Source: Octopus sinensis | Taxonomy: Eukaryota | Length of the DNA: 64,000 bases | Reading direction: 5' to 3' | NCBI RefSeq assembly: GCF_006345805.1 | Contig: NC_042998.1 | Location: 196,106,001 to 196,170,000 of the forward strand | Shown here: one piece after another, positions 9,333 to 62,900 of the stretch | Position numbering within the stretch: the stretch's first letter is position 1 | Layout: each line of letters begins with the position of its first letter | Program-made: the position numbers and the translations under genes | The notes under the pieces: model-generated | Seen by the model: the letters and a program-made list of their open reading frames with translations, nothing else | Database searches by the model: none | Told to the model about the DNA's origin: nothing

Positions 9333-9508
9333 GATACAGTCCTATATTTAGGAGATGAAGAATTATTTACATTATTTACATTCGACGGATATTTGTCCTC
9401 ATCTTGTTTGTTGTTAACACAACATTTCGGCTGATATACCCTCCAGCCTTCTTCAGGTGTCCTGGGGAAATTTCGAACCTGGGTTCTCATTCCTAAGGTA
9501 TTTTTCAA

Positions 9509-9672: not shown

Positions 9673-10176
9673 TTACAAAGAATAAGTCCTGGTGTCGATT
9701 TCTTCAACTAAAGGAACAAACGAAAGATTCACACACAAGACATGTTCTTTCCTCGTCAGTAATCGGCCAAAATCATAATGTCACACCTTTAACGATAAGG
9801 TTGTTCATTTTGGTGGCATCAACAAGCAAAATGCTGCAGGAAAGAAATGAGAGAATATAAAGAATGGTGAAGAAAACAAACAAAACATGTGTAGTTGGTA
9901 ACAGATATAGAATATCCAAGTCAAATAAAGGCCACATGGCTCTGAGACAGCATGGAGAACTTCAGTATAAAATTGATATGGAAAATAATTTTGTTTAATT
10001 TAGAAAAATAATAAGACATATTTATGGTAAATATGCAAATGAGGAATTTGTTTTCTTGAATTTTTATTTTAAGGTAATAAATATTTTTAGTTTGAAAAAT
10101 TAATATTCATTATTTCATTGGTTTTTATAAACACAATGAAATTTAATGGAAGTTAAACTATAATTATTGTTATTGC

Positions 10177-10508
10177 GGAGATGTACTTGCATAGCGAGTG
10201 ACCTGATCTGAGATCGTGTGCTGGTACGAAAACAATTGCAGCGTGGAAGGTGTTTGTAAGCCATATAAGAAACACACAAAAACTGTTAGACTTACTTCAA
10301 CATTTAAATTTAATTTGCCAAAATATTTTCGCCGCTTTGAAACCGAGACCTGTTCACTGAATTCTGCAGCATGGAATTTTCTCAGTGAACAGGTCGCAGT
10401 CTTAAAGCGACGAAAATATTTTGACAAATTAAATTTAAATGTTGAAGTGAATCTAACGGTTTTTGTGTGTTTTTAAATGGCTTATAAACACCTTCCACGC
10501 TGCAATTT
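10177..10508. mobile_element. Fold-back short element with two G3-C8 minimal hammerhead folds (family G)
   Basis: Arms about 10235-10360 and 10382-10507; tca-GTGAACA-g-gtcgc..gcgac-GAAA-ATAT-TT-tgacaaa at 10378-10428. Confidence 0.7.
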
Positions 10509-12601: not shown

Positions 12602-13080
12602 CTTCTATGTTTTTGAGACGAGGAATTATGTACATTATTTGCAATGGATGCTTAGATGCCCTCATCTTGTTTGTTGTTACCACAACATTTCGGCTGATGT
12701 ACTCTCCAGCCTTCATCAGGTGTTCTGATAGGATTTCAAACCCAACCCTTTATTAGACTAACGGGGTACTCTGTTCTCATTTCTAAGGTATTCTATTTAC
12801 TGATGTTATTTTTTGAAGATATTATGCCCATAGACATATAGTGTAGTAAATAAGAGCTACTAACACTCGGATTCTGGGTTCAAACCCAAGCAGGGAAGTG
12901 GAAAATAATATCTACATAAAAAATAGAATCTGCAAAAAAGAATACCTTAAGGATGAGAACAGGGTATCCCATTAGTGAAATAAAGGGTTGGGTTTGAAAT
13001 TCCACCAGGACACCTGATGAAGGCTGGAGAGTACATCAGACGAAATGTTGTGGTAATAACAAATAAGATGAGGGCATCCA
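12602..13080. mobile_element. Diverged family A unit: inverted body, degenerate tRNA head, body; two hammerheads
   Basis: About 12657-12790 is the reverse complement of about 12940-13080. CTGATGA...GAAA cores at 12679-12724 (-) and 13009-13054 (+). Confidence 0.72.
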
Positions 13081-20416: not shown

Positions 20417-21345
20417 GGAGTGGCTGTGTGGTAAGTAGCTTGCTTACCAACCACATGGTTCCGGGTTCAATCCCACTGCATGGCACCTTGGATAATTGTC
20501 TTCTACTATAGCCTCGGGCCAACCAAAGCCTTGTGAGTGGATTTGGTAGACGGAAACTGAAAGAAGCCTGTTGTATATATGTATATGTATATATATGTAT
20601 ATATATATATATGTTATATGTATATATATATATGTATATGTATATATATATATATGTTATATGTATATATATATATGTATATGTATATATATATATATGT
20701 ATATATATAACGTTGGCGTTAGAAAACACTACCAGATCTGACTGGCCTGGTGCAGCCTTCGGGCTTCCCAGACCCCAGTTGAACCATCCAACCCATGCTA
20801 GCATGGAAAGCGGACGTTAAATGATGATGATGATGATGATGATGATGATATATATATATATGTATGTGTGTGTGTATGTGTCTATATATAAAAAAAAACA
20901 TGATTTTCCTTGACCGTTGCCAGTACTGCCTGAGTGGCCTTCATGCCAGTGGCACGTAAAAGCACCCACTACACTCTCAGAGTGTTTGGCATTAGGAAGG
21001 GCATCCAGCTGTAGAAGCTCTGCCAAATCAAGATTGGAGCCTGGTGCAGATATCTGGTTCGCCAAACTCAGTCAAATTGTCCAACCCATGCTAGCATGGA
21101 AAGCGGACGTTAAACGATGATAATGATGATGATATATGTGTCTGTGTTTGTCCCCCCAACATCACCTGACAACCGATGCTGGTGTGTTTACGTCCCCGTA
21201 ACTTAGCGGTTCGGCAAAAGAGACTGATAGAATAAATACTAGGCTTACAAAGAATAAGTCCTGGGATCAATTTGCTCGACTAAAGGCGGTGCTCCAGCAT
21301 GGCCGTAGTCAAACGACTGAAACAAGTAAAAGGGTATAAAAGAGT
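20417..21345 (+). mobile_element. SINE family B split by two family C insertions in its microsatellite
   Basis: Head 20417-20575, tail 21135-21345; family C copies at 20712-20848 and 20915-21133. Confidence 0.75.
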
Positions 21346-22385: not shown

Positions 22386-22803
22386 AACAAGAACTGGTCA
22401 CTTCAAATGTTCTGATTTTTGCGTTACACAGAGAGGATTATCAACATCACACACACACACATACGTCATTTGTCTTCTATCTTTTACTTGTTTTAGTCAT
22501 TAAAACTATGGCCATGCTGGGGCACCACCTTTTTTGCTTAACCACTAAGTTATAGGGACATAAACACACCAACAGCAGTTCTGAAGCACTTGTAGGGGAC
22601 AAACAGACACAAAGACACACATCGATATGCATGCATATATCATCATCATCATCATCATCGTTTAACGTCCGCTTTCCATGCTAGCATGGGTTGGATGGTT
22701 CAACTGGGGTCTGAAGCCAGAAGGCTGCATCAGGCCCAGTCTGATCTGGCAGTGTTTCTACAGCTGGATGCCCTTCCTAACGCCAACCACTCCGTGAGTG
22801 TAG

Positions 22804-22834
<31 letters not shown>

Positions 22835-23204
22835 CAGAAAGAAGCCTGTCATATATATATATGACAGGCTTCTTTCAGTTTTTATGTACCATATCCACCC
22901 ACAAGACTTTGGTTCGCCCGTGGCTGTAGTAAAGATACTCGCCCAGGTTATCATGCAGTGGGACTGAACCCAGAACCATGTGGTTGGGAAGCAAGCTTCT
23001 TGGCACATTGCCATGCCTGCTGTTATGTATACATATATAGACACCTGAAATATATAAAGTTACTCAATATGCACATACCCAGATACCAACACATGCATAC
23101 ACACACAAAGAGGGGCACAGAATATATATGCATACATATATATCACCCCAGATAAGCAGTATGTGCATTCTACACAGTTATATATATATATATTATATAT
23201 ATAT

Positions 23205-23580: not shown

Positions 23581-23584
23581 TATA

Positions 23585-23940
23585 TATATTAGAAGAAATG
23601 AGGTACTTAGAAGTACGGATGGTTTATATTTACAGATATTTATTTGTATATTACATTTTTTATATATATATCATATCACTTAGATCATTAGCGCTTTCTC
23701 CCATTCTAGTGGGGTTTCAAATCAAAATAAGTTCCTGTGTGGGGAATTTTAATCATTTTATAGAGTTTCGTAGTGGTGGGGAGGAATATAAGACAGTACT
23801 GTCTTATATAAGTGATATGATATATATATAAAAAATGTAATATACAAATAAATATCTGTAAATATAAACCATCCGTACTTCTAAGTACCTCATTTCTTCT
23901 AATATATAAAACCTGTACATCATCTCCAAACCTTCCAATA
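23585..23940. mobile_element. Fold-back short element in (TA)n with degenerate hammerhead-like fold (family U)
   Basis: About 23585-23682 is inverted at about 23808-23908, with a ~30-nt extension on the right arm only; homologous to 39477-39772. Confidence 0.65.
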
Positions 23941-24604: not shown

Positions 24605-24757
24605 CCGGAATAAACACATAAATGTGAAACAGGTGGAAAAAAGAGTACTCAAATACCAGAGGTAGAGTAATATGCTTTATTTAAAGCAGCAGAAAATTCT
24701 ACAAAACCATTTCTGCTGCTTTTAAATAAAGTATATATATATATGTATGTGTGTGTA

Positions 24758-30011: not shown

Positions 30012-31336
30012 TTCACTCTTTTACTTGTTTCGGTCATTTGACTGCGGCCATGCTAGAGCACCGCCATTAGTCGAGCAAATCGACCCCAGGACTTATTCTT
30101 TGTAAGCCTAGTACTTATTCTATGGGTCTCTTTTGCCGAACCGCTAAGTAACGGGGACGTAAACACACCAGCATCGGTTGTCAAGCAATGCAAGGGGGAC
30201 AAACACAGACACACAAACACATACACATACATATATATACATATATATACGACAGGCTTCTTTCAGTTTCCGTCTACCAAATCCACTCACAAGGCATTGG
30301 TCGGCCCGAGGCTATAGTAGAAGACACTTGCCCAAGATGCCACGCAGTGGGACTGAACCCGGAACCATGTGGTTGGTTAGCAAGCTACTTACCACACAGC
30401 CACTCCTGCGCCTATATATATATATATTTGTCTTTCATCCTTTCTGGGTCTCTTTTACTCTTTTACTTGTTTCAGTCATTTGACTGCGGCCATGCTGGAG
30501 CACTGCCATTAGTCGAGCAAATCGACCCCAGGACTTATTCTTTGTAAGCCTAGTACTTATTCTATGGGTCTCTTTTGCCGAACCACTAGGTTACGGGGTC
30601 GTAAACACACCAGCATCGGTTCTCAAATGATGTGGGGGGGGGGCAAACACACACATATATACATACATATATACGACGGGCTTCTTTCAGTTTCCGTCTG
30701 CCAAACTCACTCGGTCGGCCCGAGGCTCGGTATTTTTTTTACGAAATTTTTGGGGAGGGAGCCAGTCGATTAGATTGACTTCAGTACGCAACTGGTACTT
30801 AATTTATCGACCCCGAATGGATGAAATGCAAAGTCGACCTCGGTGGAATTTGAACTCAGAACGTAAAGACAGACCGCTAAGGAATTCGTCCGGTGTGCTA
30901 ACGTTTCTGCCAGCTCGCTGCCTTTCTGAGTCGGTAATATTAGTACCAGTTGAGCACTAACCCCGTCCCCTAAAAATTTTCAGGCCTGGTTCCTATACTC
31001 TTTTACTTGTTTCAGTCATTTGACTGCGGCCATGCTGGGGCACCGCTTTTTAGTCGAGCACATCGACCCCAGGACTTATTCTTTGTAAGCCTAGTACTTA
31101 TTCTATCGGTCTCTTTTGCCGAGCCGCTAAGTTACGGGGACGTAAACACACCAGCATCGGTTGTCAAGCGATGTTGGGTGGGGGGGACAAACACAGACAT
31201 ACAAGCATATATACATATATACGACGAGCTTCTTTCGGTTTCCGTCTACCAAATCCACTCCCAAGGCTTTGGTTGGCCCGTGGCTATAGTAGAAGACACT
31301 TGCCCAAGGTGCCACGCAGTGGGGCTGAACCCGGAA
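30012..31336 (-). mobile_element. Cluster of three family B SINEs (30012-30413, 30451-30725, 30997-31336) and a family M copy
   Basis: Repeated ctcttttacttgtttc(a/g)gtcatttgactgcggccatgct starts. Confidence 0.8.
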
Positions 31337-31937
31337 CTGCTCCTATAGTAGAAAGAATTATTAAAGCGGTGAACTGATTGAATCGTTGGCGTGTCGGATT
31401 AAATGCTTAGCGACATTTCTTCCGGCTCATAACATTTAAATGCCCTCGAGGTCGACTTTGCCTGTCATCCGTTCAGGATCGATGTAATCGATTTTTCCAC
31501 TTCCCTAAAATTGCAGGCCTTGTGCCAAAATTTGAAACAATTATTTACATTGTTATTGTATTTCTAATGATTTCGGGTAATTTTAAAACCATTTAATTAG
31601 TATTTTATTTTATTTCCTTTTATTTAAATAAAATCTGAAAATATAAACACAAATAGGCGCAGGGGTGGCTGTGTGGTAAGTAGCTTGCTTACCAACCACA
31701 TGGTTCCGGGTTCAGTCCCACTGCATGGCACCTTGGGCAAGTGTCTTCTGCTATAGCCCCGGGCCGACCAATGCCTTGTGAGTGGATTTGGTAGACGGAA
31801 ACTGAAAGAAGCCTGTCGTATATATGTATATATATATATATATATATATAAGAAAATAGTAAGTGTGAAAAGACGACAGAAGGCTTAAATGTTAAAAAAT
31901 ATATATATTTGTGTCAAAATGTCTGGAGAATATTGGA

Positions 31938-31981
<44 letters not shown>

Positions 31982-32019
31982 CCTCCTTTCCTTAAAATGA
32001 CATAATTTTAAAATTTTTA

Positions 32020-32058
32020 AAGAAATTACCGGTTTCGCGTGTAGCTTTTCAATTTCTT
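32020..32058 (-). ncRNA. Mirror copy of the PLE minimal hammerhead
   Basis: Reverse complement aagaaa-TTGAAAA-gctacacgc-GAAACCGGTA-atttctt, one T shorter than the right-arm copy. Confidence 0.65.
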
Positions 32059-32195
32059 GTGACGTTATGTTTATATTGCATGGACTTATCGTTGTTTTTA
32101 TTTCCAGGAGATTTCTAAATAAGGGGAGGTAGTGAGTGATTTTTTCCGGTGTAGGGGAGATATCGCTTAAAAATTTTTTTTTTCCATTTCCTTGT

Positions 32196-34179
32196 TAATT
32201 TCTCTGTGTCAGTATGTTCGGATGGTTGAGTCTGGGTTTGTACTTTTCAATGAAGAATGTTTCCTTGTTCAGTCTCATTTGTGTTGATGATCCGAAAGCA
32301 CATTGGTAAAATGGGAAGATTAAAAATTGTGGCAGTAGTTGCTTTGCGCATTTCTCAATGTGCTCACTAAAAGTATCATTCTATATTCTGGGAATGCAAT
32401 CTGTTGTCGATGCAGTGTGCATCTGCGCCTGAGTGATAGTCCCGTGGAACCCACGTAGTCTTGGTGGCAGCCCGAGCATTAATAACACATAAATTATGTT
32501 TTCAGAGGCACAAGTAAAGTTAGATTTGATCTTAAATTTCTGTCCCTCTTTAAAGAAGAATTCTGATCCTTCCAATAGGTTAGGACATGTTGCACAGTTC
32601 GATCTACCACATTTTTTTACTTTTGCATCCGTAATTTTAGAAGACAATTTTGCCTTTGTGAGTATCTTTTTAAGTGATTTAGGCTTGTTTGTAGCTTTTA
32701 ATGATTTGGTGTATGTTTAGAATTTCCTTTAATTTTGGGTTTTTATGAAGTATTGGTAAATTCTGGGTGATGATGGTGAAGGCTTCTTTGTTTCTGGGGT
32801 TGTATGAATATGTAAGGTAGTATTTTCGGGGAAGGTGTGTTGTTGTGTTGAACTTTTCTTAAAGTTTCTATGTTGATTTCTGTTGCACGTCTGATCCCAT
32901 CCTCTATGAGTTGAGCTGGGTAATGTCTGTCAATTAGGGTGTTTTTGAGTTCTTGCAGTCTAAAGTTCCTGGTATTTTTTTCTGACACTATTGTGCATAT
33001 CCTTCTTGCAAGGTTGAAGGGGATGTTTGTTTTAGTGTGTCTTGGGTGGCATGAATTAAAAAGAAGGTATTGTTTGGCGTCTGTGGCTTTGTAAAAAATG
33101 TCTGTTCTATTTAAGGTTAATTTTTTTAATTAGTATATCCAAGAACGGGAGCTCCTTTTGGTTGTATTCCATTGTGAACTGTATATTTGGGTTTATGCTG
33201 TTCAATAGGTTTTTAAATTTTAGGAGTTTATCTATTTTTCATTCCAGAGAATGAAACAATCGTCTAGGAATCGTTTCCAATTCTCTTTTATGTATTGAGA
33301 GAGGGAGTTTCCAAAGATTGATAGAGATTCCTGGTAAATGATTATTTCCATGTATCCCATTGTTAAGTTCGCAATGACTGGTGCTGCCCTTGTACCATAG
33401 CAATTCCGGATTTTTGACGGTAAAATGTATTGTCAAACATGAAGTGGTTATTGTGTAGGATGAATTCAATTGATTTAGTAATGAATTCCTTACTGATCCT
33501 TTTTGGTATTTCTTCCGGAAATTGGTCTAACCAGAATTGTATTGCCTCCAGTCCGTAATTATGAGGTATACTGGTATACAAGTTGACTACATCAAATGAA
33601 ACCAGGATTGTTTCTTCCTTGGTTTTTTTTGGAAGGTGGTTTAACATATCTAAGTCATCTCTGATATGGCTATCGATATGTTTAAGGAAGGGTTTCAAGA
33701 GGATGTCCATAAGTAGACTTAGTCTGTGTGTTTCACAGGTTGGGCCAGCTACAATGGGTCGTAGTTTTAGGTCCCCCGGATTAGTGTGTGTATGTATGTC
33801 TTTGGTGATTTTTAATGGTTTCATTTATAATTTGACTTTTATGAATTTTTGGCAGACCATAGAAAAGGCTAGGTTTGCATTTAAAGTTTGTTAGGAAATC
33901 AATCTCTTTGGTTGTCAGTTCCTTTTCATGGGTTTTAATTAGTGAAGATAGAGTTTTCATTATTTTTTGTGGGGTGTAGTTGGTAATTTTTTCATAATGT
34001 AGGTCTTCATCAAGCAAGGAAATTACAAGATTTCTGTAGTATGATGTATCCATTATTACAACTGCATTTCCCTTGTCCGCTTCCTTAATGGTTATATCTT
34101 CATCATTTTGGAGTTCTATCAGTTCTTTCCATTGTGTATTGTTAAAATTTGGGTTAGCTTTCTGTTCGGCTTTCTGTTC
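32196..34179 (-). pseudogene. PLE RT + GIY-YIG, longer 5'-truncated copy, frameshifted
   Basis: ORF fragments with IKEADKGNAVVIMD, FYGLPKIHK, LRPIVAG, SFDVVNLYTSIP and CGRSNCATC; mirror image of the right arm. Confidence 0.92.
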
Positions 34180-35574
34180 TTGATGTAGTCAACTTGTATA
34201 CCAGTATACCTCATAATTACGGACTGGAGGCAATACAATTCTGGTTAGACCAATTTCCGGAAGAAATACCAAAAAGGATCAGTAAGGAATTCATTACTAA
34301 ATCAATTGAATTCATCCTACACAAACCACTTCATGTTTGACAATACATTTTACCGTCAAAATCGGAATTGCTATGGGTACAAGGGCAGCACCAGTCATTG
34401 CGAACTTAACAATGGGAACATGGAAATAATCATTTACCAGGAATCTCTATCAATCTTGGAAACTCCCTCTCTCAATACATAAAGAGAATTGGAAACGATT
34501 CCTAGACGATTGTTTCATTCTCTGGAATAAAACATAGATAAACTCCTAAAATTTAAAAACCTATTGAACAGCATAAACCCAAATATACAGTTCACAATGG
34601 AATACAACCAAAAGGAGCTCCCGTTCTTGGATATACTAATTAAAAAAATTAACCTTAAAATAGAAACAGACATTTTTTACAAAGCCACAGACGCCAAACA
34701 ATACCTTCTTTTTAATTCATGCCACCCAAGACACACTAAAACAAACATCCCCTTCAACCTTGCAAGAAGGATATGCGCAATAGTGTCAGAACAAAATACC
34801 AGGAACTTTAGACTGCAAGAACTCAAAAACACCCTAATTGACAGACATTACCCAGCTCAACTCATAGAGGATGGGATCAGACGTGCAACAGAAATCAACA
34901 TAGAAACTTTAAGAAAAGTTCCACACACAACACACCTTCCCCGAAAATACTACCTACATATCTACATACAACCCCAGAAACAAAGAAGCCTTCACCATCA
35001 TCACCCAGAATTACCAATACTTCATAAAAACCCAAAATTAAAGGAAATTCTAAACATACACCAAATCATTAAAAGCTACAAACAGCCTAAATCACTTAAA
35101 AAGATACTCACAAAGGCAAAATTGTCTTCTAAAATTACGGATGCAAAAGTAAAAAAATGTGGTAGATCGAACTGTGCAACATGTCCTAACCTATTGGAAG
35201 GATCAGAATTCTTCTTTAAAGAGGGACAGAAATTTAAGATCAAATCTAACTTTACTTGTGCCTCTGAAAACATAATTTATGTTATTAAATGCTCGGGCTG
35301 CCACCAAGACTACGTGGGTTCCACGGGACTATCACTCAGGCGCAGATGCACACTGCATCGACAACAGATTGCATTCCCAGAATATAGAATGATACCTTTT
35401 AGTGAGCACATTGAGAAATGCGCAAAGCAACTACTGCCACAATTTTTAATCTTCCCATTTTACCAATGTGCTTTCGGATCATCAACACAAATGAGACTGA
35501 ACAAGGAAACATTCTTCATTGAAAAGTACAAACCCAGACTCAACCATCCGAACATACTGACACAGAGAAATTAA
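34180..35574 (+). pseudogene. PLE reverse transcriptase (C-terminal part) plus GIY-YIG endonuclease, 5'-truncated and frameshifted
   Basis: DVVNLYTSIPH, SGIAMGTRAAP, RFLDD (34499-34510), LPFLDILI, TDIFYKATD, SCHPRHTK, linker CGRSNCATC, NIIYVIKCSGC..YVGST GIY-YIG motif; stop at 35574. Confidence 0.92.
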
Positions 35575-35709
35575 CAAGGAAATGGAAAAAAAATTTTTAA
35601 GCGATTATCTCCCCTACACCGGAAAAAATCACTCACTACCTCCCCTTATTTAGAAATCTCCTGGAAATAAAAACAACGATAAGTCCATGCAATATAAACA
35701 TAACGTCAC

Positions 35710-35749
35710 AAGAAATTTGAAAAGCTACACGCGAAACCGGTAATTTCTT
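35710..35749 (+). ncRNA. Minimal type I hammerhead ribozyme in the PLE 3' region (U3-A8 core variant)
   Basis: aagaaat-TTGAAAA-gc tacac gc-GAAA-CCGG-TA-atttctt: 7-bp stem I, 2-bp stem II, palindromic CCGG in place of stem III. Confidence 0.75.
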
Positions 35750-35947
35750 TAAAAATTTTAAAATTATGTCATTTTAAGGAAAGGAGAAAAAAAAAAAAAA
35801 AAAAAATTTTTCCAATATTCTCCAGACATTTTGACACAAATATATATTTTTTAACATTTAAGCCTTCTGTCGTCTTTTCACACTTTACTATTTTCTTATA
35901 TATTCACCCACGTGCTTTACCAAAAACTTTCTTATCTATATATATAT

Positions 35948-36001
<54 letters not shown>

Positions 36002-36252
36002 GTGTGTGTATGTGTGTGTATATGTTTGTGTGTCTGTGTTTGTCCCTCTAGCATTGCTTGACAACCGATGCTGGTGTGTTTACGTCCCCGTCACTTAGCG
36101 GTTCGGCAAAAGAGACCGATAGAATAAGTACTGGGCTTACAAAGAATAAGTCCCGGGATCGATTTGCTCCAGCATGGCCGCAGGCAAATGACTGAAACAA
36201 GTAAAAGAGTAAACAACATCGCCGAACGTTAATTTATAGAAATTATTTTTAA

Positions 36253-36287
36253 TGAGAGAAGGAAAGAGAGAGAGAGAAAGATAGACA

Positions 36288-36329
<42 letters not shown>

Positions 36330-38331: not shown

Positions 38332-39153
38332 TATATGACACACGAACCTGTGTCCATTATAACCTTCGAACAGGGGAGGTCAGCCGCTTCTCCTTGCTGG
38401 TCTGGCAGCTGCAGACATGTTTCAGGGTATTTGCCCTTTATCAATGCAGAGTATTTTATTTTATCGAACTGACGAAAAAGCTTCTTGCAAAATCTATTAG
38501 AAATAGTAGCAGCCAGTTCGATTAATTGTTGATTCGAGTAGCTGTTATTTCGATCAATTGTTTCTATTTTCGTTTTGCTGTTTTCGATACATTGGCGCCC
38601 AAAGTGTCATTGGTATACGGCAAGTTGAAGGGGACGGAGTGGCCAAGGTGGTAGAGCGCCGGACTCAAATGTGTTTGTGTAGTTCACAGCTTACGTATAT
38701 TCTGACGTCATATTGTACCGTAGTTGATCTTTTTTTATCCTCTTGAGGATAAAATTATATACTGGGATGATTCATCGTCACAATACCTTTACCCGTTTTT
38801 ATATCTGTGGCCTTGTTCCGGCGTGAGAAACTTCTATAAATAAATTACACTTTAATAGAAGTTGGTTAGTGTTTGGAGTGAGGGTAACATGTTTTTATAG
38901 ATCAGCATGAAAGAAATGTGTGTGGAAGGGGAAGGTTGGTGAAATTGCACAAATGGAACGAGGGAAACGAGAGACAGACAATTGAACAAACGTGAGAGGT
39001 TCATTACATCGAGTGGACGAGAATTGAAAAGGCGGTGGACGAAATGTAAAAACAGTTTTGTACAATGAAATTGGACGTTGAAGAACGGAAGGCTCAGACT
39101 GATGTTTAGGGTGAATCCATTATCTAAATAGAATAAGCCAGAAACGAGCAGAG

Positions 39154-39235: not shown

Positions 39236-39445
39236 CCGGAGTAAACACATAAATGTGAAACAAGGTGGAAAAAAGAGTACTCAAATACCAGTGGTAGAGT
39301 AATATACTTTATTTAAAGCAGCAGAAAATTCAACAAAACCTGTTACTCTGAGTTTCTCGTTGCCGCAAAAACTGTCCGATGACGGCAACGGAAACTCAGA
39401 GTAACAGGTTTTGTTGAATTTTCTGCTGCTTTAAATAAAGTATAT
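39236..39445. mobile_element. Fold-back short element in (TA)n (family P); related copies at 24605-24733 and near 40748-40792
   Basis: Inverted arms tttatttaaagcagcagaaaattcaacaaaacctgttactctgagtttc and its complement; near-identical start at 24605. Confidence 0.65.
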
Positions 39446-39476: not shown

Positions 39477-39772
39477 ACAGATATTTATTTGTATATTACG
39501 TGTTTTTTATACACATATAACTTATATCATATATCATATATTAGCGCTTTCGTCCATTCTGGTGGATTTTTCAAATGGAGCTTAGTCCATTTGAAAAATC
39601 CACCAGAATGGACGAAAGCGCTATTATATATGTATATGATATAAGTTATATGATGTATAAAAAACACGTAATATACAAATAAATATCTGTAAATATAAAA
39701 TCATCCGAATTTCTGAGTACCTCATTTCTTCTAATATAAAATACCTGTACATCATCTCCCAACTTTCTAATA
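39477..39772. mobile_element. Family U fold-back element
   Basis: Palindrome centred near 39582; TTGAAAA-a-tcca ccagaa tgga-c-GAAA-GCGC-TA at 39591-39623. Confidence 0.65.
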
Positions 39773-39774
39773 TA

Positions 39775-40161
39775 TCTTTATATATAAAAGTGAGGTTGTG
39801 TGCTGTCTGTCTCCTACGATTTAGATTCGTAACTACTCCCACAATTTGCGGTGCAGTTTAACCAAAACGGGTATCTCATAGTCGCGATTCATATCAAGCC
39901 CTTCTGGGTATTAGCGCGCGTCTACGATGAGTCTTACGATTTAAAAAAAATTTACCATCAATTTTTCCCATTTTTAATGCATTTTGGCATATATAAGGAA
40001 GTAACTCTAAAAATTTATTATAAATCTCAGAACTAAACAGCTACAGTAACACCCCCCTTGTGGTTAGCCATATTGAGATGGCTATTATACTTTACATCTC
40101 TCTAAACTGCTTATATAGTTATTTCCCTTACAAACCCGAGCACGCCGGGCGATACTGCTAG
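39775..40161 (+). mobile_element. Non-autonomous Helitron
   Basis: 5' A|TCTTTATATATAAA, subterminal GC hairpin cccgagcacgccggg, 3' CTAG|T, no TSD. Confidence 0.85.
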
Positions 40162-40179
40162 TATAATATATATAAAACC

Positions 40180-40378
40180 ACGAAATTTTGTCAGTGAACA
40201 GGTCGCGTTCCCAAAGCGACGAAAATATTTTGGCAAACTAAATTTAATGTTGAAGTGAATCTAACGGGGTTTTTTTTTTGTGTTTCTTAAATGGCTTATA
40301 AACACTCCACGCTGCAATTGTTTTTGTTTAGGCACACAATCTCAGATCAAGTCATTTACTATTCAAATACATCTCCGT
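40180..40378 (+). mobile_element. Family G single arm with minimal hammerhead fold, inside (TA)n
   Basis: tttgtca-GTGAACA-g-gtcgc..gcgac-GAAA-ATAT-TT-tggcaaa at 40187-40237; the remainder matches 10177-10508. Confidence 0.7.
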
Positions 40379-43057: not shown

Positions 43058-43992
43058 GGCGGCGGCGACGGCCTAGCAGAATTGTTAGCGCGCTGGACAA
43101 AATGCTTAGCTGTGTTTCGTCTGCCGCTACGCTTTGAGTTCAAATTCCGCTGAGGTCGACTTTGCCTTTCGGGGTCGATATAATCGACTTAATCCCTTTG
43201 TCTCTCCTTGTTTGTCCCCTCTGTGTTTAGCCCCTTGTGGATAGTAAAGAAATAGGCATTTCGTCTGCCGCTACGTTCTGAGTTCAAATTCCGCCGAGGT
43301 CGACGTTGCCTTTCATCCTTTCGGAGTCGATAAATTAAGTACCAGTTATGCACTGGGGTCGATATAATCGACTTAATCCGTTTGTCTCTCCTTGTTTGTC
43401 CCCTCTGTGTTTAGCCCCTTGTGGGTAGTAAAGAAATAGGTATTTCGTCTGCCGTTACGTTGTGAGTTCAAATTCCGCCGAGGTCGACTTTGCCTTTCAT
43501 CCTTTCGGGGTCGATAAATTAAGTACCAGTTACGCACTGGGGTCGATGTAATCGACTTAATCCGTATGTCTGTCCTTGTTCGTCCCCTCTGTGTTTAGTC
43601 CCTTGTGGGTAGTAAAGAAATAGGTATTTCGTCTGCCGTTACGTTCTGAGTTCAAATTCCGCCGAGGTCGACTTTGCCTTTCATCCTTTCGGGGTCGATA
43701 AATTAAGTACCAGTTACGCACTGGTGTCGATATAATCGACTTAATCCGTTTATCTGTCCTTGTTTGTCCCCTCTGTGTTTAGTCCCTTGTGGGTAGTAAA
43801 GAAATAGGTATTTCGTCTGCCGTTACGTTCTGAGTTCAAATTCCGCCGAGGTCGACTTTGCCTTTCATCCTTTCGGGGTCGATAAATTAAGTACCAGTTA
43901 CGCACTGGGGTCGATGTAATCGACTTAATCCGTCTGTCTGTCCTTGTTTGTCCCCTCTGTGTTTAGCCCCTTGTGGGTAGTAAAGAAATAGG
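43058..43992 (+). repeat. Head-to-tail array of five family M SINE bodies, 184-bp period
   Basis: gtaaagaaatagg recurs at 43244, 43428, 43612, 43796 and 43980; a single head near 43058. Confidence 0.92.
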
Positions 43993-44107
43993 TGCATACG
44001 GACGAAATCCCGCTAAGCAATTTTGCCCGCTTGCCGCCTTACTTAATACAGAAATATTCCAGGATATCTTGGAATATAGCAGTGTTCCATTACATCCTTT
44101 GATACCC

Positions 44108-46526: not shown

Positions 46527-46891
46527 GTCGTCTGCCGCTACGTTCTGAGTTCAAATTCCGCCGAGGTCGACTTTGCCTTTCATCCTTTCGGGGGTCGATA
46601 AATTAAGTACCAGTTACGCACTGGAGTCGATATAATCGACTTAATCCGTTTGTCTGACCTTTTTTGTCTTCTCTGTGTTTAGCCCCTTGTGGGTAGTAAA
46701 GGAATAGGTATTTCGTTTGTTTTTTACGTTCTGAGTTCAAATTCCGCCGAGGTCGACTTTGCCTTTCGTCCTTTCGGGGTCGATAAATTAAGTACCAGTT
46801 ACGCACTGGAGTCGATATAATCGACTTAATCCGTTTGTCTGTCTTTGTTTGTCCTCTCTGTGTTTAGCCCTCTTGTGGGTAGTAAAGAAAC
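46527..46891 (+). mobile_element. Family M tandem dimer
   Basis: Two ~184-bp bodies with the same aataggtatttcgt junction as the 43 kb array. Confidence 0.85.
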
Positions 46892-54299: not shown

Positions 54300-54900
54300 G
54301 GAGGCGAGATGACAGAATCGTTAGAATGGCGGGCGAAATGCTTAGCAGCATTTCGTCTGCCATTACCTTCTGAGTTCAAATTCCGCCGAGGTCGACTTTG
54401 CCTTTCATCCTTTCAGGGTCGATTAAATAAGTACCAGTTACGCACTGGGGTCGATGTAATCCACTTAATCTGTTTGTCTGTCCTTGTTTGTCCTCTCTGT
54501 GTTTAGCCCCTTGTGGGTAGTAAAGAAATAGGTATTTCGTCTGCCGTTACGTTCTGAGTTCAAATTCCGCCAAGGTCGACTTTGCCTTTCATCCTTTCAG
54601 GGTCGATTAAATAAGTACCAGTTACGCACTGGGGTCGATGTAATCGACTTAATCCGTCTGTCTGTCCTTGTTTGTCCCCTCTGTGTGCAGCCCCTGGTGG
54701 GCAGTAAAGAAATAAGAATCGTTAGAACGGCGGGCGAAATGCTTAGCGGCATTTCGTTCGTCTTTACGTTATGAATGCAAATGCCGCCAGGGTTGGCATT
54801 GCCTTTTATCCATTCCGAGATCGATGAAATTGGTACCAGTTGTGCACTGGCGTTAATGCAATTGGATTATTCCATTGCTGGCCTTGTGTCAAAATTTGAA
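54300..54900 (+). mobile_element. Family M dimer followed by an older related SINE
   Basis: Two bodies up to 54715, then a degenerate copy. Confidence 0.8.
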
Positions 54901-56202: not shown

Positions 56203-56940
56203 GTAATGGCTATATATTTAAATTATAAAACAACAATGTTGTGGAATTTACACAAGTTGATGTCTAATGTTGGTAAATAACACCAAATGCATCCCCCTGC
56301 ATATTGCTACACGGCGGACTCGATTCTCTCGTAGCACAATATTTCACTGAAACACAAATGACAGCTAAACATTTCTTTATATTCTACGACTACAAACAAA
56401 GGTCACCCTTCATTCACTTTGATTGTTCTCCATCATAAAAATTCCTCGCTAATCTATGAAACACCTTAATATTCCTGCTGAATAACCATTCCTGTTATTT
56501 TGTCAATACTGAAAAAAAAAGTGGAAAAACCAAAAAAATAGCAAGAAAAAGAAAAAAAAGTTTCTGCGCAACTGGCAAAGTTGGGTGTGTTTGCATATGT
56601 AAAAAAAAACGAAAAAAAGAAATAAAAATTGTAATCAATATGTATTATCTTTCCTCTGTCCTCTACACACCTCTGTAGCCCTAAACCTGTCCTTGTGGCT
56701 TGACTACCACAGTATGTATGTCATTGTAAATATATTTATAACTCGCTTTCTCATCACAAACGACGTGGACAGCTGTTACATGCGGCAGGTCGGCTCTCTC
56801 TCTTCGGATCTATACAACTGATTGATTTTTATTCATGGATTACATTTTGGATTAAATCAACTGTTTATCTAAAAACTATTTAAAACTGCCGTTTTCTTTC
56901 TTTATTTCTTCTCCGATGTTCTTTCAATGACTCTCAAACG

Positions 56941-59900
56941 ATGAATGCGTCAGGCGGAGTCCCAGCTATGGACGGAGCGTTCGAACGGTTTATCACGGCC
57001 GCCATCGCTACCATCATTACTATCATGTTTTCTTGGAGACTCTTAACCGATGTCAACGAGTACGACTCCACCATTCCCATCATTTCCCCTCCACCGCCCA
57101 GACTGAAGCATCTCACAGAAGACAACCGGGAAACAGATGATAGTAATGATTACGATAACTTTTCAGACGCTGACGACGAAGCTGAAATCGAACCCGCGAC
57201 CTGCCAATTCAGAACCTTTGCTTTTGCAATGCCAGCGAGCCGCCAACATTCCGATCACAGCATTCCAGGTGTAACCAGTCATTCTAACATTCCGAGTGCA
57301 GCAGAGATGAGCAACGTTCGTTATCATTCCACAAACAGAGCTGACGACTGTTATCAAACGATGGCGATACCCAGAACGACAGACATACCTGGCGGATGTG
57401 CGGAGCAGGAGATAAGTTATCAACCTGTCGAGCCATTAGGCCTGAAGGCAAATAACACAGCAGTAGCAGCAACTGGTAGTAGTAGTAGTAGTAGTTGTAA
57501 TAATACAGTTACTGCTGCTGCTTCTAGTACAGACATTAAAGTAGGCAGCACGGTAAGAAGCCACCCTATTGTAGCTAAGAGAGAGACAGGTAAAACTGTT
57601 TTTACGTTGAGTTCCGCCTCGCCGCTCCAACAAGTTGTATCACCCCCTCCGCTGGAAGGTGTTCACACCAGACCAAGGCTGCCCTCACTTCAGCTCGGCG
57701 GCAATTCTCCTCCGCAAAACCTCCTCGCTTCTGACGACTCGCTAATGACGACCACACCGAGACGTTCGTCTCACACTTCTATCGAAGCACCAACAACAAC
57801 ACCACCATGTCTTTCTTCTTCTTCTACATCGACAAACGTAAGTCGTTCTTCTTTAACTCAAACGTCGAGTCGTGGATCTCAGGTGAAGCGACCACCTCCG
57901 CCATTGCCGCCTCGACGACCTCAAGGTAGCGGCGGTGGCGGTGGTGATGTTACACACACCACTATTAACAACAACAACAATAACTATGATAATATTTCTT
58001 CTACTACTACCTCTATTGCTAGTCCAAATGACCGTAATACTAATGCTACCAACACACACACATCGACTGGCGATCAAACTAAAAAACCTGCCGCCGCTCC
58101 TATATTAGGAAGACGAGCCATGGCGAACAACAATAAAAATAATGTTGCTAACAAAAACGAAAGCTGTCAGTCCACAAGTAGCAGCAATAATAGTAGTAGA
58201 GGCAGCAGCAGTAGTGGTAGTAGTACCAGTGGTAGTACCAGCAGTCTTGTGTGTAACCGTGAGTTTCGAAATATTGTCGACGACGATGACTTCAAACAAA
58301 TGGTACCCAGCCGTGAAATGAATTTCTTTCGTCCAAGGCATCGATATTGCCCTCCGCCGCCCTCGCCGTCCAATGTCCACTACTACGATATCGATTCCGA
58401 CTCAGACAGCGACTCCGAAGTTTTCTATTTCAACGGTCTGGAACCGATCGAGGAAGAAGACTCAGACGATCTATCCTCCGACAGCGATCGATGCGAGGAG
58501 TACGAAGTGAAAGGAAGCTACCCACCCTCCGTCATTCACCACGACTACCACGACGACGACAACAACAATTTTCACACCTTCAACAGAAGCAGCAGCGGCA
58601 GCCTCGGCAGCAGCTACAAGCAACCCAGTTCGTTTAGTCTTACAGGTGTTCCAGCACGTGGCAATGCAGGTCTGTTATTTTCATCTCACCCTGGTGACGC
58701 TGCTGCTACTACTACCATCAACAATCGAACGGCATCGTTGCTGTCTGCCAGCAGCAGTCATCATCATAATAATAATATTAGTAGTAGTAGCAACAGCACC
58801 AGCATCAGCAGCTCGCCTCGCCAGCATGGCAGAAGTTTTACGACTGAAAACAAAAACAGTGAAGCTGCTAAGATTTGCGAGGGAAGTTCTGTGGATACGT
58901 CCTTCACGTCCCCTTATGTGTCGAGCAGCGATGAACCGACGGAGAGAGAAGAGCCGGAGGAGAAAGGCAAAGAAACAAGGCCATACAGTGTAGTAGAGGA
59001 ATGTGACCAACCCAGGTACGAGGATGACGACACGAGTCGAGATAATAACAATGTCACCTACACACACGCTACAGCGACTGTTGAACAGGCACCCATTATA
59101 TGTCCACCTAAGCAATTGTTTAATGTGCTGCCGTCCTCCACTTCGTCGTTTTCTCTATCAAACACTCATTCAACGTCAGTATTAACGCCGCCAGAACCAC
59201 CACCGCCGCCGCCGCCAACAACAATAACAATAACAACAACAGCTACAGTTGATAATGTGATATCTACTAATAACATTCCAGTCCAACATATGTATAGAGG
59301 TAATAACAATGGAGATACGATAAGCTATACATCGAAAGTTTGTGCAGAGGAACAGTCGGGTTTTGTTACGATGCCTCCTCCTCCTCCAAGTTCTGACCAC
59401 TACCAACAACAACAACAGCAGCAAGAGTCTCGTGCCAGTGGTTTTGGTCAGGTGGACAATATCGATTCAACAAGCAAACAAACGACAGTTCGGTCGACGG
59501 AGGAACTGAGCAACTCGTTGAAGAAATCCTCGGTGACCGCTCGACCCCTCAGCCAGACCATCGGCGATTTAAGTGACACGTCACGTGATTTGACCACTTA
59601 CAATGAAAATGCACTTTTGACTTTCACAACGTCCACGAACGAACGTTCACAGCGAATCAAGGACGATTCCGTAAACCCTGCACAGACTCCTCAAAAGTCT
59701 CGGGAGCGATCTTATTCCGATGGCGATGTCAACCCAGATGAAGAAACCTGCAGCAGTCCATCTGAAAGTACTCATGGTCTTATGCTCGATATCCGAGCTA
59801 ACGCTACAACGAAAGAGGAAACCGAGTCGTATGGAGATGAATTCCTAATCATGGGGAAAAATAATCTACAGAATTTCCAGACTCCTTCACCGGATGTATA

Positions 59901-62900
59901 CTGTTCCAACCAATCCAACTGGCCCATCCAGCTCTACTTTGATGCTACCAAATCCAATGCTGCCGAGAATCCACCTCGTGGTTTTACGTTTTCCTACTCG
60001 GAGCCGGGCGAAACGGCCTACAAAGCTCGTAGTTATTACGTCGAGAACTACGACAACAACAGCAACACTTTGAACAACAACAATGTTCACCATGAATATG
60101 ATGACCGTCGGAATATGTCAGAGCTTAATGAGAATAATAATTTATCTGCAGATGATCTAACGTTTACTCCACCAAGGGACTATGTCGATAACCCAGTGAG
60201 ATTTGCTTCTGATGATATTAATGTCTTTACAGCTAGCAAGCTTGACAATGGCCCAGTGATAATTACAAGGGCCTTGTCGATGACGGAGGCTGAACCAAGT
60301 AGACAACCTGACAACTACACCAGTCTTGAACAGCAAAACAGATATCTGTCAAATTATAAGGAACCAGAGAGTATGGAAACTACATCATCTCGAGTACAGC
60401 ATGGAGAAGGGAACCAACCACGAAGGACTTACAGCGAACAGGAAGCCGTGGAGAATGTTTTACAGTACGATGGATTAACCGAGAAGGATTTATATATTAA
60501 CAAGTATTCGGATTACGTTCAGAGTGATTACGTTACCCTTGTTACTTTGGAAAAATCATACCCTGACATTTTAAAAAAAGGGAGTTTCATTGAAAATAGC
60601 CAGGATATAAATTCCAATGATTACGTTAGGGAGGAGAGTATGGAAGACAGTGTGTTTCCTGACGTGGTAAAAAAAGATACATACCCCGTCAGCTCCTCAC
60701 ATCAGGGTACTGTCGATCATGCACATGTATTGACTTTTCCTGATGTGTTAAACAAAGGAATCGTTGAAAAAACAGAGGATGTGATTTCTGAGGATTTTAC
60801 CGTATTAGAGTGTAAAGAGAAACGACCATTTCCTGATATTGTTGATGGACAAGCTTACCATGTTAATGAGCACGCAGGTTATGGTCAGAATTATTCTGTA
60901 ATGCAGGAAGCGGCAGAAAAAACAGGTTTTCCTGATATAGTAAATAGAGAAGAATTCCATTTGGACAGACATTTACAAGAGACTCAGCAGGGTTACACAA
61001 TGGAAAGTAAATTACTTGTTCATCAAGAACCAAAGGAAGATATAATTAAAAATGAAATTCCTGTTGACTATAGCAGTCGATTGGATACAAAAGAGAAACC
61101 TAGTTCTGATTCAACGAGAAATTCTTCATACGTATCACACGTAGAAATGGGGGCTGTTTTGAAACCCCCATCTTTGATAAAAAATGAGAATCTGGTTCCT
61201 GATACATATTCTTTAACTACAAGTGTTGATCCTGTAAGAAAGGTAACTGTATCACCTGAAAGTCTGTCCAGTTCTGAATTAGGATTAAAAACTGAACCAG
61301 CAGCCAGTGAAGAACTTGTTTCTAGTATGGACTCTGAAGTAGAATTTGAAGTGTTCAAAAGCGAATGTTTAGCCCATTCCGAGGATTATAGCAGTTTATT
61401 ATCCCTTGAAAAGTTGGATGAGTCAGGTAACATGTACCCCAGTCAACACGAGATGTCTTCAAATAAAGCTGACAGTGAGAATTATGAGGGCAGCCTGTCT
61501 CTCGAAGAATACGACGAACTTGCAGACCTCGTTAGTGACCAGCTTAGTCCACCTCTAACATCAGCCCTTCACAGACCATTGACAGTTAACACACACATAG
61601 GTGGCAGTCGTCAAGTTCCTTTAGTCCGACGGAAAATTAATGCTGTGCGGAAACGATATTTTGGCAGCGAAAACAACGTCTCCGATTTGGTTGAGGATGA
61701 AAATTCTGTGAGCAACCGATTTGCTCGATATCGCAAAACTTCTCTGAGGGCCTTGAAACGACGAGATGCTGCTAAGCGTCTCTCTTTACACAATGACCCG
61801 GAGGCAATACACGCTTCAAGGATTAGGCCAAGCAAAAGTCTGAGCCACATCAGTCAACTCTATTTACGCAGTGAACCTGTATGTAAGTACCCCCGTCCAC
61901 CTTTCCATGAAATACACCCAGACTGTATATTGTCACCTGGCAATGCGGATAACCTTGAAGAATCTATTCAAGCTGCATCCATTGATAATCTCGAGTCCTG
62001 TTTGTCCCAATACGATTCCTTTTGTTCTTTGGTGGAGACGGACATAGACACAGGGGAAACAACTGAGAGACGGTTCAGTTTTGATAGTGAAGCTTTTGAA
62101 ATTCCTTTCTCTTTTCAGCAATCCTATTTCGGCAAGTCAACGAGTCTAATGGATCTACGCTCAGAACAGCAACAGGTAAGGCGGTCGACCGGCAAAAGCC
62201 GGTTTGCTGACCGAAATGTACCAAAATCAAAGAGCATGCAGACACTTGAAACAAATCTTGACGATGATGATGATGAAGATGACCTTCTAGGTGAGTCAAG
62301 TTTTAGGCGAGTACCGTCCATTCATGAGCTGAGAGTGTCACGTTCTTTACAAAAATTAAATGTTCCGGCTTGGTACAAGAATTCAAGTGTGTCTCGCAGT
62401 GGTAGTTGCATTCTAAACAGAGACAATGACTCCATGAAATCCTTTGATTGGAGATTCAACGCAAGTCTTACTTCATCTCCAGCCAGCAGCATCATTAGCC
62501 ACCAAGCACCCGTTGTCATAAAAACACGTGTCACACCCAGCTATACTCGTTCATATTCTGCACCTCTGAAGACCCCTAAATTAGTGCTGCCTCCAAAGCC
62601 GGCTAATGTTCGACTACCAAGCGATCAATTCAGAAACCAAGAAAAGCCAAAAGGTTTGATGCCAATTCCAATAGTGCCCTTCTTAAAGATCCGGGAAATG
62701 TTTGAGAAGAAGAGTCAAGAGAACAACTCCCAACCGACTTTTCCCGCTCCAGTCAGTCCCGTTTCTAAAACTCCTGTGAAAAATTCAAAACCAGAACCAC
62801 CAAAACGGATAACTCCAGTGAAACCCGATTCAATATCGCAAAGTAAAAAGTCTCCTGTCTCACCTGGATTTTCTCCGGCTCTACGGATCGACGAAGCTAT

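What the first reader, a model, noticed from the sequence alone, without database searches (positions are those of the whole stretch)
31850..35936. 4-kb Penelope/Neptune palindrome: two 5'-truncated copies head-to-head with ~1.7-kb arms
Seen: arms 31850-33595 and 34180-35897 are near-identical inverted copies around a 584-bp spacer. Both 3' ends point outward, and only the right arm has a ~34-nt extension (35903-35936). The junction falls at RT motif (F)DVVNLY. Known: PLEs often show inverted ends with a short one-sided tail; Neptune-type PLEs have a Cys-rich linker before a C-terminal GIY-YIG. Inference: a recent insertion primed from both target strands or formed by fold-back. It would give long dsRNA if read through, a potential ADAR or small-RNA substrate.
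Basis: partly seen in the sequence, partly recalled or inferred. Interest (0 to 1): 0.7.

Follow-up and report, generated by a model that had tools for sequence, protein, structure and literature searches.

The report
Ordinary head-to-head Penelope insertion in octopus
Two cut-off copies of a Penelope-type jumping gene sit head to head inside a short repeat of an octopus genome, likely from one recent insertion, which is the ordinary, already described way these elements are found and not a new kind of structure.

Summary
The structure is real and ordinary. Arms 31844/50-33595 and 34180-35903 match at 1709 of 1762 columns. The 584-bp 'spacer' is the longer copy's own upstream RT sequence plus a 13-nt junction insert. 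The 4.09-kb unit sits in the (AT)n core of a SINE whose halves stay collinear. The host is an Octopus. Inverted 5'-truncated copies, a 30-40-nt one-sided tail and (TA)n targets are all in print (PMC8557442, PMC3846280, PMC11167929), and short versions lie elsewhere in this window. The tail is on the shorter arm, which excludes simple fold-back and favours priming from both target strands; no contig shown bridged the centre, so an assembly artefact is unlikely but not closed. Read-through, dsRNA and editing are untested. The scan found the same architecture before on other DNA (e1-7856734).

The parts
31660..31818 (+). 5' half of the host SINE that was hit by the insertion
   Evidence: matches 14 other copies in the window; in 11 of the 14 the 3' half follows after only 18-60 nt
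31819..31849 (.). left part of the SINE's (AT)n core, the target; 31844-31849 could be element or target
31850..34166 (-). left, longer 5'-truncated PLE copy (2317 nt), no tail; frame broken by indels
33596..34166 (-). the 'spacer': the left copy's own upstream RT region (DKG at 34077, RPIVAGP at 33761)
   Evidence: joint 33596/34180 on opposite strands in 4 of 4 runs, table 5
34167..34179 (.). junction insert, likely templated: 34169-34179 repeats 34157-34167 (11 nt, period 12)
   Evidence: only exact direct repeat of 9 nt or more at period 5-25 in 33596-35700; table 8: X14 record 16 fits to 34166 and runs on 450 letters beyond
34180..35936 (+). right, shorter 5'-truncated PLE copy (1757 nt) with tail; starts in FDVVNLY
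35158..35184 (+). CX4CxxC linker motif (CGRSNCATC) between RT thumb and endonuclease
   Evidence: CX2-5CxxC pattern in 101 of 102 relatives
35278..35409 (+). GIY-YIG endonuclease core with CxxC between the two motifs and two histidines (CCHH); ORF stops at 35574
   Evidence: Pfam GIY-YIG E 0.018, below the curated cut-off
35710..35749 (+). predicted minimal hammerhead ribozyme, U3-A8 core variant, 7-bp stem I, 2-bp stem II, palindromic ACCGGT in place of stem III
   Evidence: (0 hits in 60 shuffled windows); loose ends at 35711 and 35755 in X10 and X14; Rfam did not detect it
32020..32058 (-). same hammerhead motif on the left arm, one T shorter in stem I
35897..35903 (+). element-encoded TATATAT at the inner (tail-less) 3' end
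   Evidence: X14 loose end behind 35903 runs into (AT)n (table 7)
35904..35936 (+). one-sided tail, 33 nt in the window (about 35 in public contigs)
   Evidence: tables 4 and 7
35937..36024 (.). right part of the SINE's (AT)n/(GT)n core
36025..36215 (+). 3' half of the host SINE, collinear with the 5' half

Best explanation
This is a pair of 5'-truncated copies of a Neptune/Nematis-type Penelope-like retroelement lying head to head inside the (AT)n core of a SINE, likely made in one recent insertion in which both target strands were nicked and each primed reverse transcription. Shown: the anatomy, the target, the domains, the family's presence in public runs, and variants shared by both arms that are rare in the family. 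Inferred: the GIY-YIG endonuclease nicked top and bottom strands of the (AT)n tract; one nick primed at the outer start site (giving the tailed 1757-nt copy), the other at the inner site about 35 nt upstream, where the element's own TATATAT could pair with the target (giving the tail-less 2317-nt copy); two RNA templates from one source copy (or one tandem transcript) were used; both cDNAs stopped early; their free 3' ends were joined by an end-joining step that left an 11-nt templated duplication, and the gaps were filled. Both copies lack the ORF's 5' end and any upstream promoter repeat, so the locus is a dead product. Confidence that it is a real PLE inverted insertion of the known kind: about 0.92; the figure below is for the two-strand priming mechanism.
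For: Geometry and identity. Spacer is element sequence. SINE halves collinear around the 4087-nt insert; 11 of 14 other copies have an 18-60-nt core. Both arms share letters that are rare in the family: C at 34220 (T in 153288 of 153345 depth units in X1, 161916 of 162024 in X2), C at 35874, A at 35106, so one source. The tail is on the arm that lacks the spacer, so that arm is not a fold-back copy of the other (sequence logic). Both 3' end types occur in other copies: tail letters at 35923 in 11 contigs each of X1 and X2, and a loose end into (AT)n behind 35903 in one X14 contig. The only short direct repeat in 2.1 kb of element body is at the junction. In vitro, a Poseidon PLE protein cleaves and extends both strands of AT-rich DNA and starts at two adjacent sites whose interval is the tail (PMC11167929, parts 1-2 read). 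Templated insertions as an end-joining scar: recalled knowledge, search listing only.
Against: No listed contig bridges 34179/34180, and 8818 pieces were not shown; the junction search found at most 2 of 10 words in any run. The in vitro work is on the Penelope/Poseidon clade, reports initiation not homologous to the cut DNA, and does not reconstitute inverted products. PMC3846280 (Discussion) reads head-to-head junctions as self-priming on an antisense template. One short sister insertion in this window (about 24605-24742) has the tail on the arm that owns the spacer, which fold-back allows. A hairpin followed by an asymmetric central deletion gives the same end state. That 34167 is the first non-element base rests on one contig whose further letters I could not see.
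Confidence: 0.6

Rival explanations
1. Self-priming hairpin, then loss of the centre: one cDNA primed from the right flank (with tail) ran 2.3 kb, folded back and copied itself to the inner TATATAT, which annealed to the left (AT)n end; the perfect palindrome later lost 571 nt from one arm, the repair leaving the 11-nt duplication. Self-priming on an antisense template (PMC3846280) is a variant.
For: Explains the shared rare variants, the tail-less end at an element-encoded TATATAT and the junction scar. Several short inserts in the window have near-zero spacers (39477-39690, 10234-10507). Instability of perfect palindromes is recalled knowledge.
Against: Needs a second event in a very young locus (5 substitutions in 1714 aligned bases). 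No palindrome is left at the junction. Two-strand extension and two start sites are shown in vitro.
Confidence: 0.25
2. Assembly artefact: a fold-back chimeric long read, or misjoined repeat copies, created the second arm.
For: Arm differences are mostly 1-2-nt indels (24 events against 5 substitutions); 9 of the 9 indel rows shown within the right arm are letters that public contigs and the left arm have and the right arm lacks (table 4), which looks like a thin long-read consensus. No contig shown bridges the centre.
Against: A fold-back read would run on into the mirror image of the left flank; instead the right arm continues into a tail absent from the left arm and then into the SINE's missing 3' half. 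Arms end at the element's two natural 3' ends. The errors are independent on the two arms. Short versions with the same layout occur in the window.
Confidence: 0.06
3. Two independent insertions in opposite orientation in the same (AT)n tract, followed by a deletion between them and perhaps gene conversion.
For: The family is abundant in two organisms' DNA runs (4802 and 3831 contigs laid) and (AT)n tracts are reused targets in this window.
Against: The arms share variants that are rare in the family; one tailed and one tail-less end is the published signature of a single unit.
Confidence: 0.05
4. The palindrome is kept as a functional source of long dsRNA (ADAR or small-RNA substrate).
For: A 270-nt piece of the arms gives a predicted duplex of -486 kcal/mol, so a read-through RNA would pair. 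Cephalopods edit heavily (recalled).
Against: No host exon was found across the locus; the one host CDS found starts 21 kb downstream at 56941 with its own first methionine. The locus is young, with no sign of conservation. Pairing capacity is a by-product of any such insertion.
Confidence: 0.04

Closest known systems
Canonical C-terminal EN+ Penelope-like elements of the Neptune and Nematis clades (Craig et al. 2021, PMC8557442; passages and Introduction read)
   Same: RT then CX2-5CxxC linker then GIY-YIG with CCHH; DKG motif; 5' truncation; adjacent inverted 5'-truncated copy; 30-40-nt tail at one end; (TA)n target hiding any duplication; hammerhead near the 3' end.
   Different: No full-length copy or direct pLTR here; the inverted arms are 1.75 kb, longer than the roughly 200-bp pLTRs described for Adineta. 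Clade not resolved by phylogeny.
Adineta vaga Penelope inverted insertions (Arkhipova et al. 2013, PMC3846280; passages and Discussion read)
   Same: Head-to-head arrangement called the most frequent; 31-bp tail on one inverted end; 5'-truncated members flanked by inverted repeats.
   Different: Penelope/Poseidon clade without the cysteine linker; palindromes at the inverted junction and 8-10-bp TSDs, against an asymmetric centre with a direct 11-nt duplication and a microsatellite target here.
Poseidon of Anolis carolinensis in vitro (Frangieh et al. 2024, PMC11167929; parts 1-2 of 4 read)
   Same: Cleaves and extends both strands of AT-rich DNA; two start sites whose interval is the tail; hammerhead in the terminal repeat.
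   Different: Other clade; start sites reported as not homologous to the cut DNA, whereas here the inner end carries 7 nt of TATATAT matching the target; C3-G8 core there, U3-A8 here.
Minimal PLE hammerheads (Cervera and de la Pena 2014, PMC4209133; parts 1-2 of 4 read)
   Same: U3-A8 covariant core (reported for Cercyon of Schistosoma), palindromic stem III region predicted to need a dimer, pairs of motifs on opposite strands 100-700 bp apart attributed to truncated PLEs.
   Different: Stem II is only 2 bp here against 7-8 bp in Schistosoma; activity untested.
L1 twin priming (recalled, no call)
   Same: Both target strands prime cDNA; junction joined by end joining.
   Different: L1 inversions cover non-overlapping parts of one RNA; here both arms contain the same 3' 1.75 kb.

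Membership tests
Penelope-like elements, endonuclease-bearing | One ORF with PLE-type RT (DKG motif, RT core) followed by a GIY-YIG domain | tested here: met
   DKG at 34077, RFLDD at 33273 (- strand), GIY-YIG core at 35278; collinear with 659-772-aa relatives bearing RVT_1 and GIY-YIG. Direct Pfam hits on the fragments are weak, below cut-off.
Penelope-like elements, endonuclease-bearing | CCHH motif with two cysteines between GIY and YIG | tested here: met
   YVIKCSGCHQDYVG, HRQQ, SEH; C254, C257, H276, H293 invariant in 15 aligned sequences
Penelope-like elements, endonuclease-bearing | RT groups with PLEs, sister to telomerase RT, in a tree with labelled references | not testable with these tools
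   No labelled PLE references: relatives are unnamed, four motif searches in the one held supplement of PMC8557442 found nothing, PDB profile search found no relative
Penelope-like elements, endonuclease-bearing | Tandem or inverted terminal structure with optional 30-40-nt tail | tested here: met
Penelope-like elements, endonuclease-bearing | Hammerhead motif in the 3' terminal region | tested here: met
   Pattern hit at 35710-35749; 2 hits in the real window, 0 in 60 shuffles. Rfam found none; the monomer folds no better than shuffles, z 0.01; cleavage untested.
Penelope-like elements, endonuclease-bearing | Direct pLTR ahead of a full ORF; GxKF/Y motif; 5' intron | not testable with these tools
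   Both copies are truncated before these parts; GxK[FY] is in 84 of 102 relatives
Neptune clade | CX2-5CxxC linker between RT and C-terminal EN | tested here: met
   CGRSNCATC at 35158; shared with Nematis per PMC8557442
Neptune clade | (TA)n target preference | tested here: met
   This copy sits in (AT)n; one further 3' end into (AT)n in X14. Two cases only.
Neptune clade | RT placed with Neptune and not Nematis | not testable with these tools
   No labelled references; Neptune is itself paraphyletic in PMC8557442
Penelope/Poseidon clade | No cysteine linker between RT and EN | tested here: not met
   Linker present
Naiad/Chlamys | N-terminal EN; DKA in place of DKG (Naiad) | tested here: not met
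   EN is C-terminal; DKG here and in 95 of 102 relatives, ADKA in 0
Hydra clade | DKT, CxCX5C linker, no CCHH | tested here: not met
   DKG, CX4CxxC and CCHH present; ADKT in 0 of 102 relatives

The most novel reading that the evidence does not exclude
The octopus genome is a natural experiment that settles how Penelope-like elements integrate. A tail on the shorter arm and a templated duplication at the centre would show two cDNAs primed from opposite strands and joined end to end by host repair, and in these (AT)n-targeting families the tail-less end would be set by pairing of an element-encoded TATAT run with the target (seen in 3 of 4 such families in this window), unlike the homology-free initiation reported for Poseidon.
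Probability: 0.25. Interest if true: 0.45.

Novelty: new member of a known kind. Interest (0 to 1): 0.2.

Why it matters
As a single locus it matters little: it is a dead, young insertion of a described kind, and recently active Penelope families are already reported in Octopus vulgaris (30 families, 329 insertions; PMC13282606, section read). Its use is as a clean specimen. How PLEs form inverted insertions is stated as unresolved (PMC8557442), and long arms with a readable centre, counted genome-wide, could separate two-strand priming from hairpin models. It also warns that such arms keep sequencing errors, so their ages and broken frames are overestimated.

Tried and rejected
No whole genome is held for this window, so copy number, full-length copies and a census of junctions could not be done. 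Junction search in public runs (34110-34250, 10 sampled words): 24 rows, none above 0.20, no holder on record as RNA: no evidence on the junction or on expression. Laying 4 of those 24 runs on 33596-35950: no listed piece bridges 34179/34180; contigs show presence only and 8818 pieces were not shown. Editing: A>G places were 10, 10, 10 and 11 in X1, X2, X14 and X10, with T>C 8, 8, 14 and 17 and C>T 6, 7, 7 and 17; no editing signal, and these runs are mixtures of family copies whose RNA status is a guess. Rfam on 31300-36300: 4 chance hits to (AT)n-like or unrelated families, none at gathering score. Monomer fold of the hammerhead region: z 0.01. PDB profile search: nothing relevant. Supplement of PMC8557442: 4 peptide motifs, 0 hits in the 1 file held; alignments held as figures could not be seen and may bear on the Neptune/Nematis call. 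A rule 'tail always on the shorter arm' was considered (main locus, 23583, 39302, probably 10234) and rejected: about 24605-24742 has it on the longer arm, and the 12655 case is unclear. A target-site duplication cannot be read: the core is 31 + 88 nt against 18-60 nt in intact copies, which fits duplication or slippage. No second PLE coding fragment in the window (tblastn with 102 relatives). Literature searches for a twin-priming or templated-junction model of PLE palindromes and for Penelope inverted repeats as cephalopod editing substrates showed no paper on these points in their listings; the library lacks most subscription papers, among them Arkhipova 2006, which I know only through citations.
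Full report
Observation. The inverted match is real: 31844-33595 against 35903-34180, 1709 of 1762 columns identical, 584 nt apart. A global alignment gives 5 substitutions and 24 indel events. The element occurs nowhere else in the window. Both 3' ends face outward, the right arm starts in the FDVVNLY motif, and only the right arm carries a tail, 35904-35936.

The spacer. Full-length relatives found with the right-arm ORF (102 proteins of 609 residues or more, best 69% identical) map on the - strand without a break through the spacer: P0001 residues 3-122 at 34170-33811 and 121-261 at 33815-33396. Contigs of all 4 runs laid join 33596 to 34180 on opposite strands (table 5), which is the element's natural continuity. 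So the locus is a 2317-nt copy and a 1757-nt copy joined at their 5' truncation points. One X14 contig fits to 34166 with no substitution over 515 nt and continues 450 letters elsewhere (table 8). 34169-34179 repeats 34157-34167, the only exact direct repeat of 9 nt or more at period 5-25 in 33596-35700. I infer a 13-nt junction insert with a templated duplication; the contig's further letters were not visible.

The target. The flanks are the two halves of one SINE. Of 14 other 5' halves in the window, 11 are followed by the 3' half after 18-60 nt of (AT)n/(GT)n, 2 after 252 and 566 nt, and 1 has none; here the gap is 4207. The insert thus sits in the SINE's microsatellite core, with 31 nt left and 88 nt right. 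A target duplication cannot be read.

The element. DKG, RPIVAGP, FDVVNLY, RFLDD, a CX4CxxC linker and a GIY-YIG core with CCHH are present in that order. Pfam hits on the fragments are weak (RVT_1 E 0.03, GIY-YIG E 0.018, both under cut-off); the relative P0001 passes for RVT_1. By the features listed in PMC8557442 this excludes Penelope/Poseidon, Naiad and Hydra and leaves Neptune or Nematis. I could not separate these: relatives are unnamed, the held supplement gave no motif hit, and the PDB search was blank. The pattern hits 2 places in the window and 0 in 60 shuffles; co-folding two copies pairs the palindrome between molecules; contigs of X10 and X14 have loose ends at 35711 and 35755, as if more distant families share only this stretch. 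Against: Rfam missed it, the monomer folds no better than shuffles, and cleavage is untested. U3-A8 minimal hammerheads of PLEs are in print (PMC4209133).

Host. A 7.1-kb open frame at 56884-63999 matches a protein named for Octopus vulgaris at 98.7% over 2222 columns; its cluster also holds Octopus sinensis proteins. Its CDS starts at 56941, 21 kb downstream of the palindrome; no host exon was found across the palindrome, though untranslated exons would not show.

Age and errors. 9 of the 9 indel rows shown inside the right arm are letters that public contigs and the left arm have and the right arm lacks; all 12 rows shown are letters missing from the window, and 10 rows were not shown. Most lie in runs of one base (read by eye). 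The unique 7.1-kb frame has no frameshift, which the arms' indel rate would make vanishingly unlikely (a control for assembly error, not for mutation, since that frame is under selection). I infer that most indels are long-read errors left unpolished in a repeat. With 5 substitutions in 1714 bases and the calibration used in PMC13282606 (0.09 = 25 million years), the arms parted at most about 0.4 million years ago; conversion between arms would make this too young. Both arms share letters rare in the family (34220, 35106, 35874), so they come from one source. The family is abundant in the two large runs (4802 and 3831 contigs laid, about a third at 99% or more).

Mechanism. Shown elsewhere: a Poseidon protein cuts and extends both strands of AT-rich DNA and starts at two sites whose interval is the tail (PMC11167929). 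Inferred here: a nick on each strand of the (AT)n tract primed one cDNA each, at the outer and the inner start site; both stopped early and were joined end to end, leaving the duplication. Simple fold-back is excluded by the sequence: the first strand would be the arm that owns the spacer, and its copy could not gain a tail that the first strand lacks, yet the tail is on the shorter arm. The same point, with the collinear SINE halves, argues against a fold-back read artefact, though no listed contig bridges the centre. A hairpin made from the tailed cDNA, with later loss of 571 nt from one arm, is not excluded; PMC3846280 favours self-priming. I give two-strand priming 0.6, hairpin plus deletion 0.25, artefact 0.06, independent insertions 0.05, a kept dsRNA function 0.04.

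Comparison with what is known. [quoted passage not shown] PMC3846280 calls head-to-head the most frequent arrangement. The window itself holds short versions: 23583-23937, 39236-39445, about 24605-24742 and 10176-10507 show inverted arms with a one-sided extension, and 39477-39690 and 12655-13078 carry hammerhead motifs on both arms; their PLE origin is inferred from layout and motif, as they have no coding sequence. Recently active Penelope families are reported in O. vulgaris.

What is left over. At the tail-less end the element itself reads TATATAT, and an (AT) run of 4 or more letters sits at the same place in 2 of the 3 short (AT)n families examined; no statistic was run, and these regions are AT-rich. 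If it holds genome-wide it would differ from the homology-free initiation reported for Poseidon. My searches listed no paper that tests this or the junction scar, but the library lacks most subscription journals. Papers seen: PMC8557442 (passages, Introduction, one supplement search), PMC3846280 (passages, Discussion), PMC11167929 and PMC4209133 (parts 1-2 of 4), PMC13282606 (passages, one section), PMC9977147 and 10.64898/2026.07.22.740005 (passages; not used as evidence). L1 twin priming, end-joining scars and palindrome instability are recalled.

Verdict. Observation confirmed; a new member of a known kind; interest 0.2.

Noticed in passing
window 23583-23937: Short version of the finding: 103-nt inverted arms (99%), 120-nt spacer that belongs at least partly to the tail-less arm, 29-nt one-sided tail, (AT)n at the ends; same family as 39477-39780.
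   Followed up: partly
window 39236-39445 and about 24605-24742: Two short head-to-head inserts of one family in (AT)n with a one-sided extension of about 66 nt, longer than the 30-40 nt usually reported; the extension is on the shorter arm in the first and on the longer arm in the second; decayed hammerhead-like motif in the first.
   Followed up: partly
window 39477-39780: Near-perfect 214-nt palindrome with a U3-A8 hammerhead-like motif (palindromic AGCGCT) on both arms and a one-sided extension.
   Followed up: partly
window 12603-13078; related copies at 9342, 6461, 41357, 42150, 5641: Inverted pair with C3-G8 hammerhead-like motifs on both arms and an extension of about 50 nt on one side, not in (AT)n; probably another PLE-derived family.
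   Followed up: partly
window 10176-10507 and 40184-40377: 274-nt palindrome with a one-sided extension of about 58 nt, and a single-arm copy ending in (AT)n; no hammerhead motif seen and no (AT) run at the extension-less end.
   Followed up: partly
window 38400-38452 (-): Lone U3-A8 hammerhead-like motif with 5-bp stems I and II and palindromic ACATGT, beside a copy of the 184-bp repeat.
   Followed up: no
window 56884-63999 (+): Open frame of 7.1 kb without a stop; CDS from 56941 matches an uncharacterised 2220-aa Octopus protein over one exon of 6.6 kb; a block near residues 1560-1960 is conserved across molluscs and weakly in insects; no Pfam hit in the library used.
   Followed up: partly
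window 43171-43993, 46539-46887, 54350-54714: Tandem arrays of a 184-bp unit (4.5, 1.9 and 2.0 copies, 93-96% alike) that also occurs as dispersed single copies.
   Followed up: no
window 20417-21336 and 22529-23019: Two more copies of the same SINE whose (AT)n cores are interrupted by 566- and 252-nt inserts, so this core is a reused target.
   Followed up: no
window 34220: The C shared by both arms leaves a depth remainder of about 56 in X1 and 108 in X2, where single contigs have depth near 50; those runs may hold this locus or its source, but depth is no copy number.
   Followed up: no
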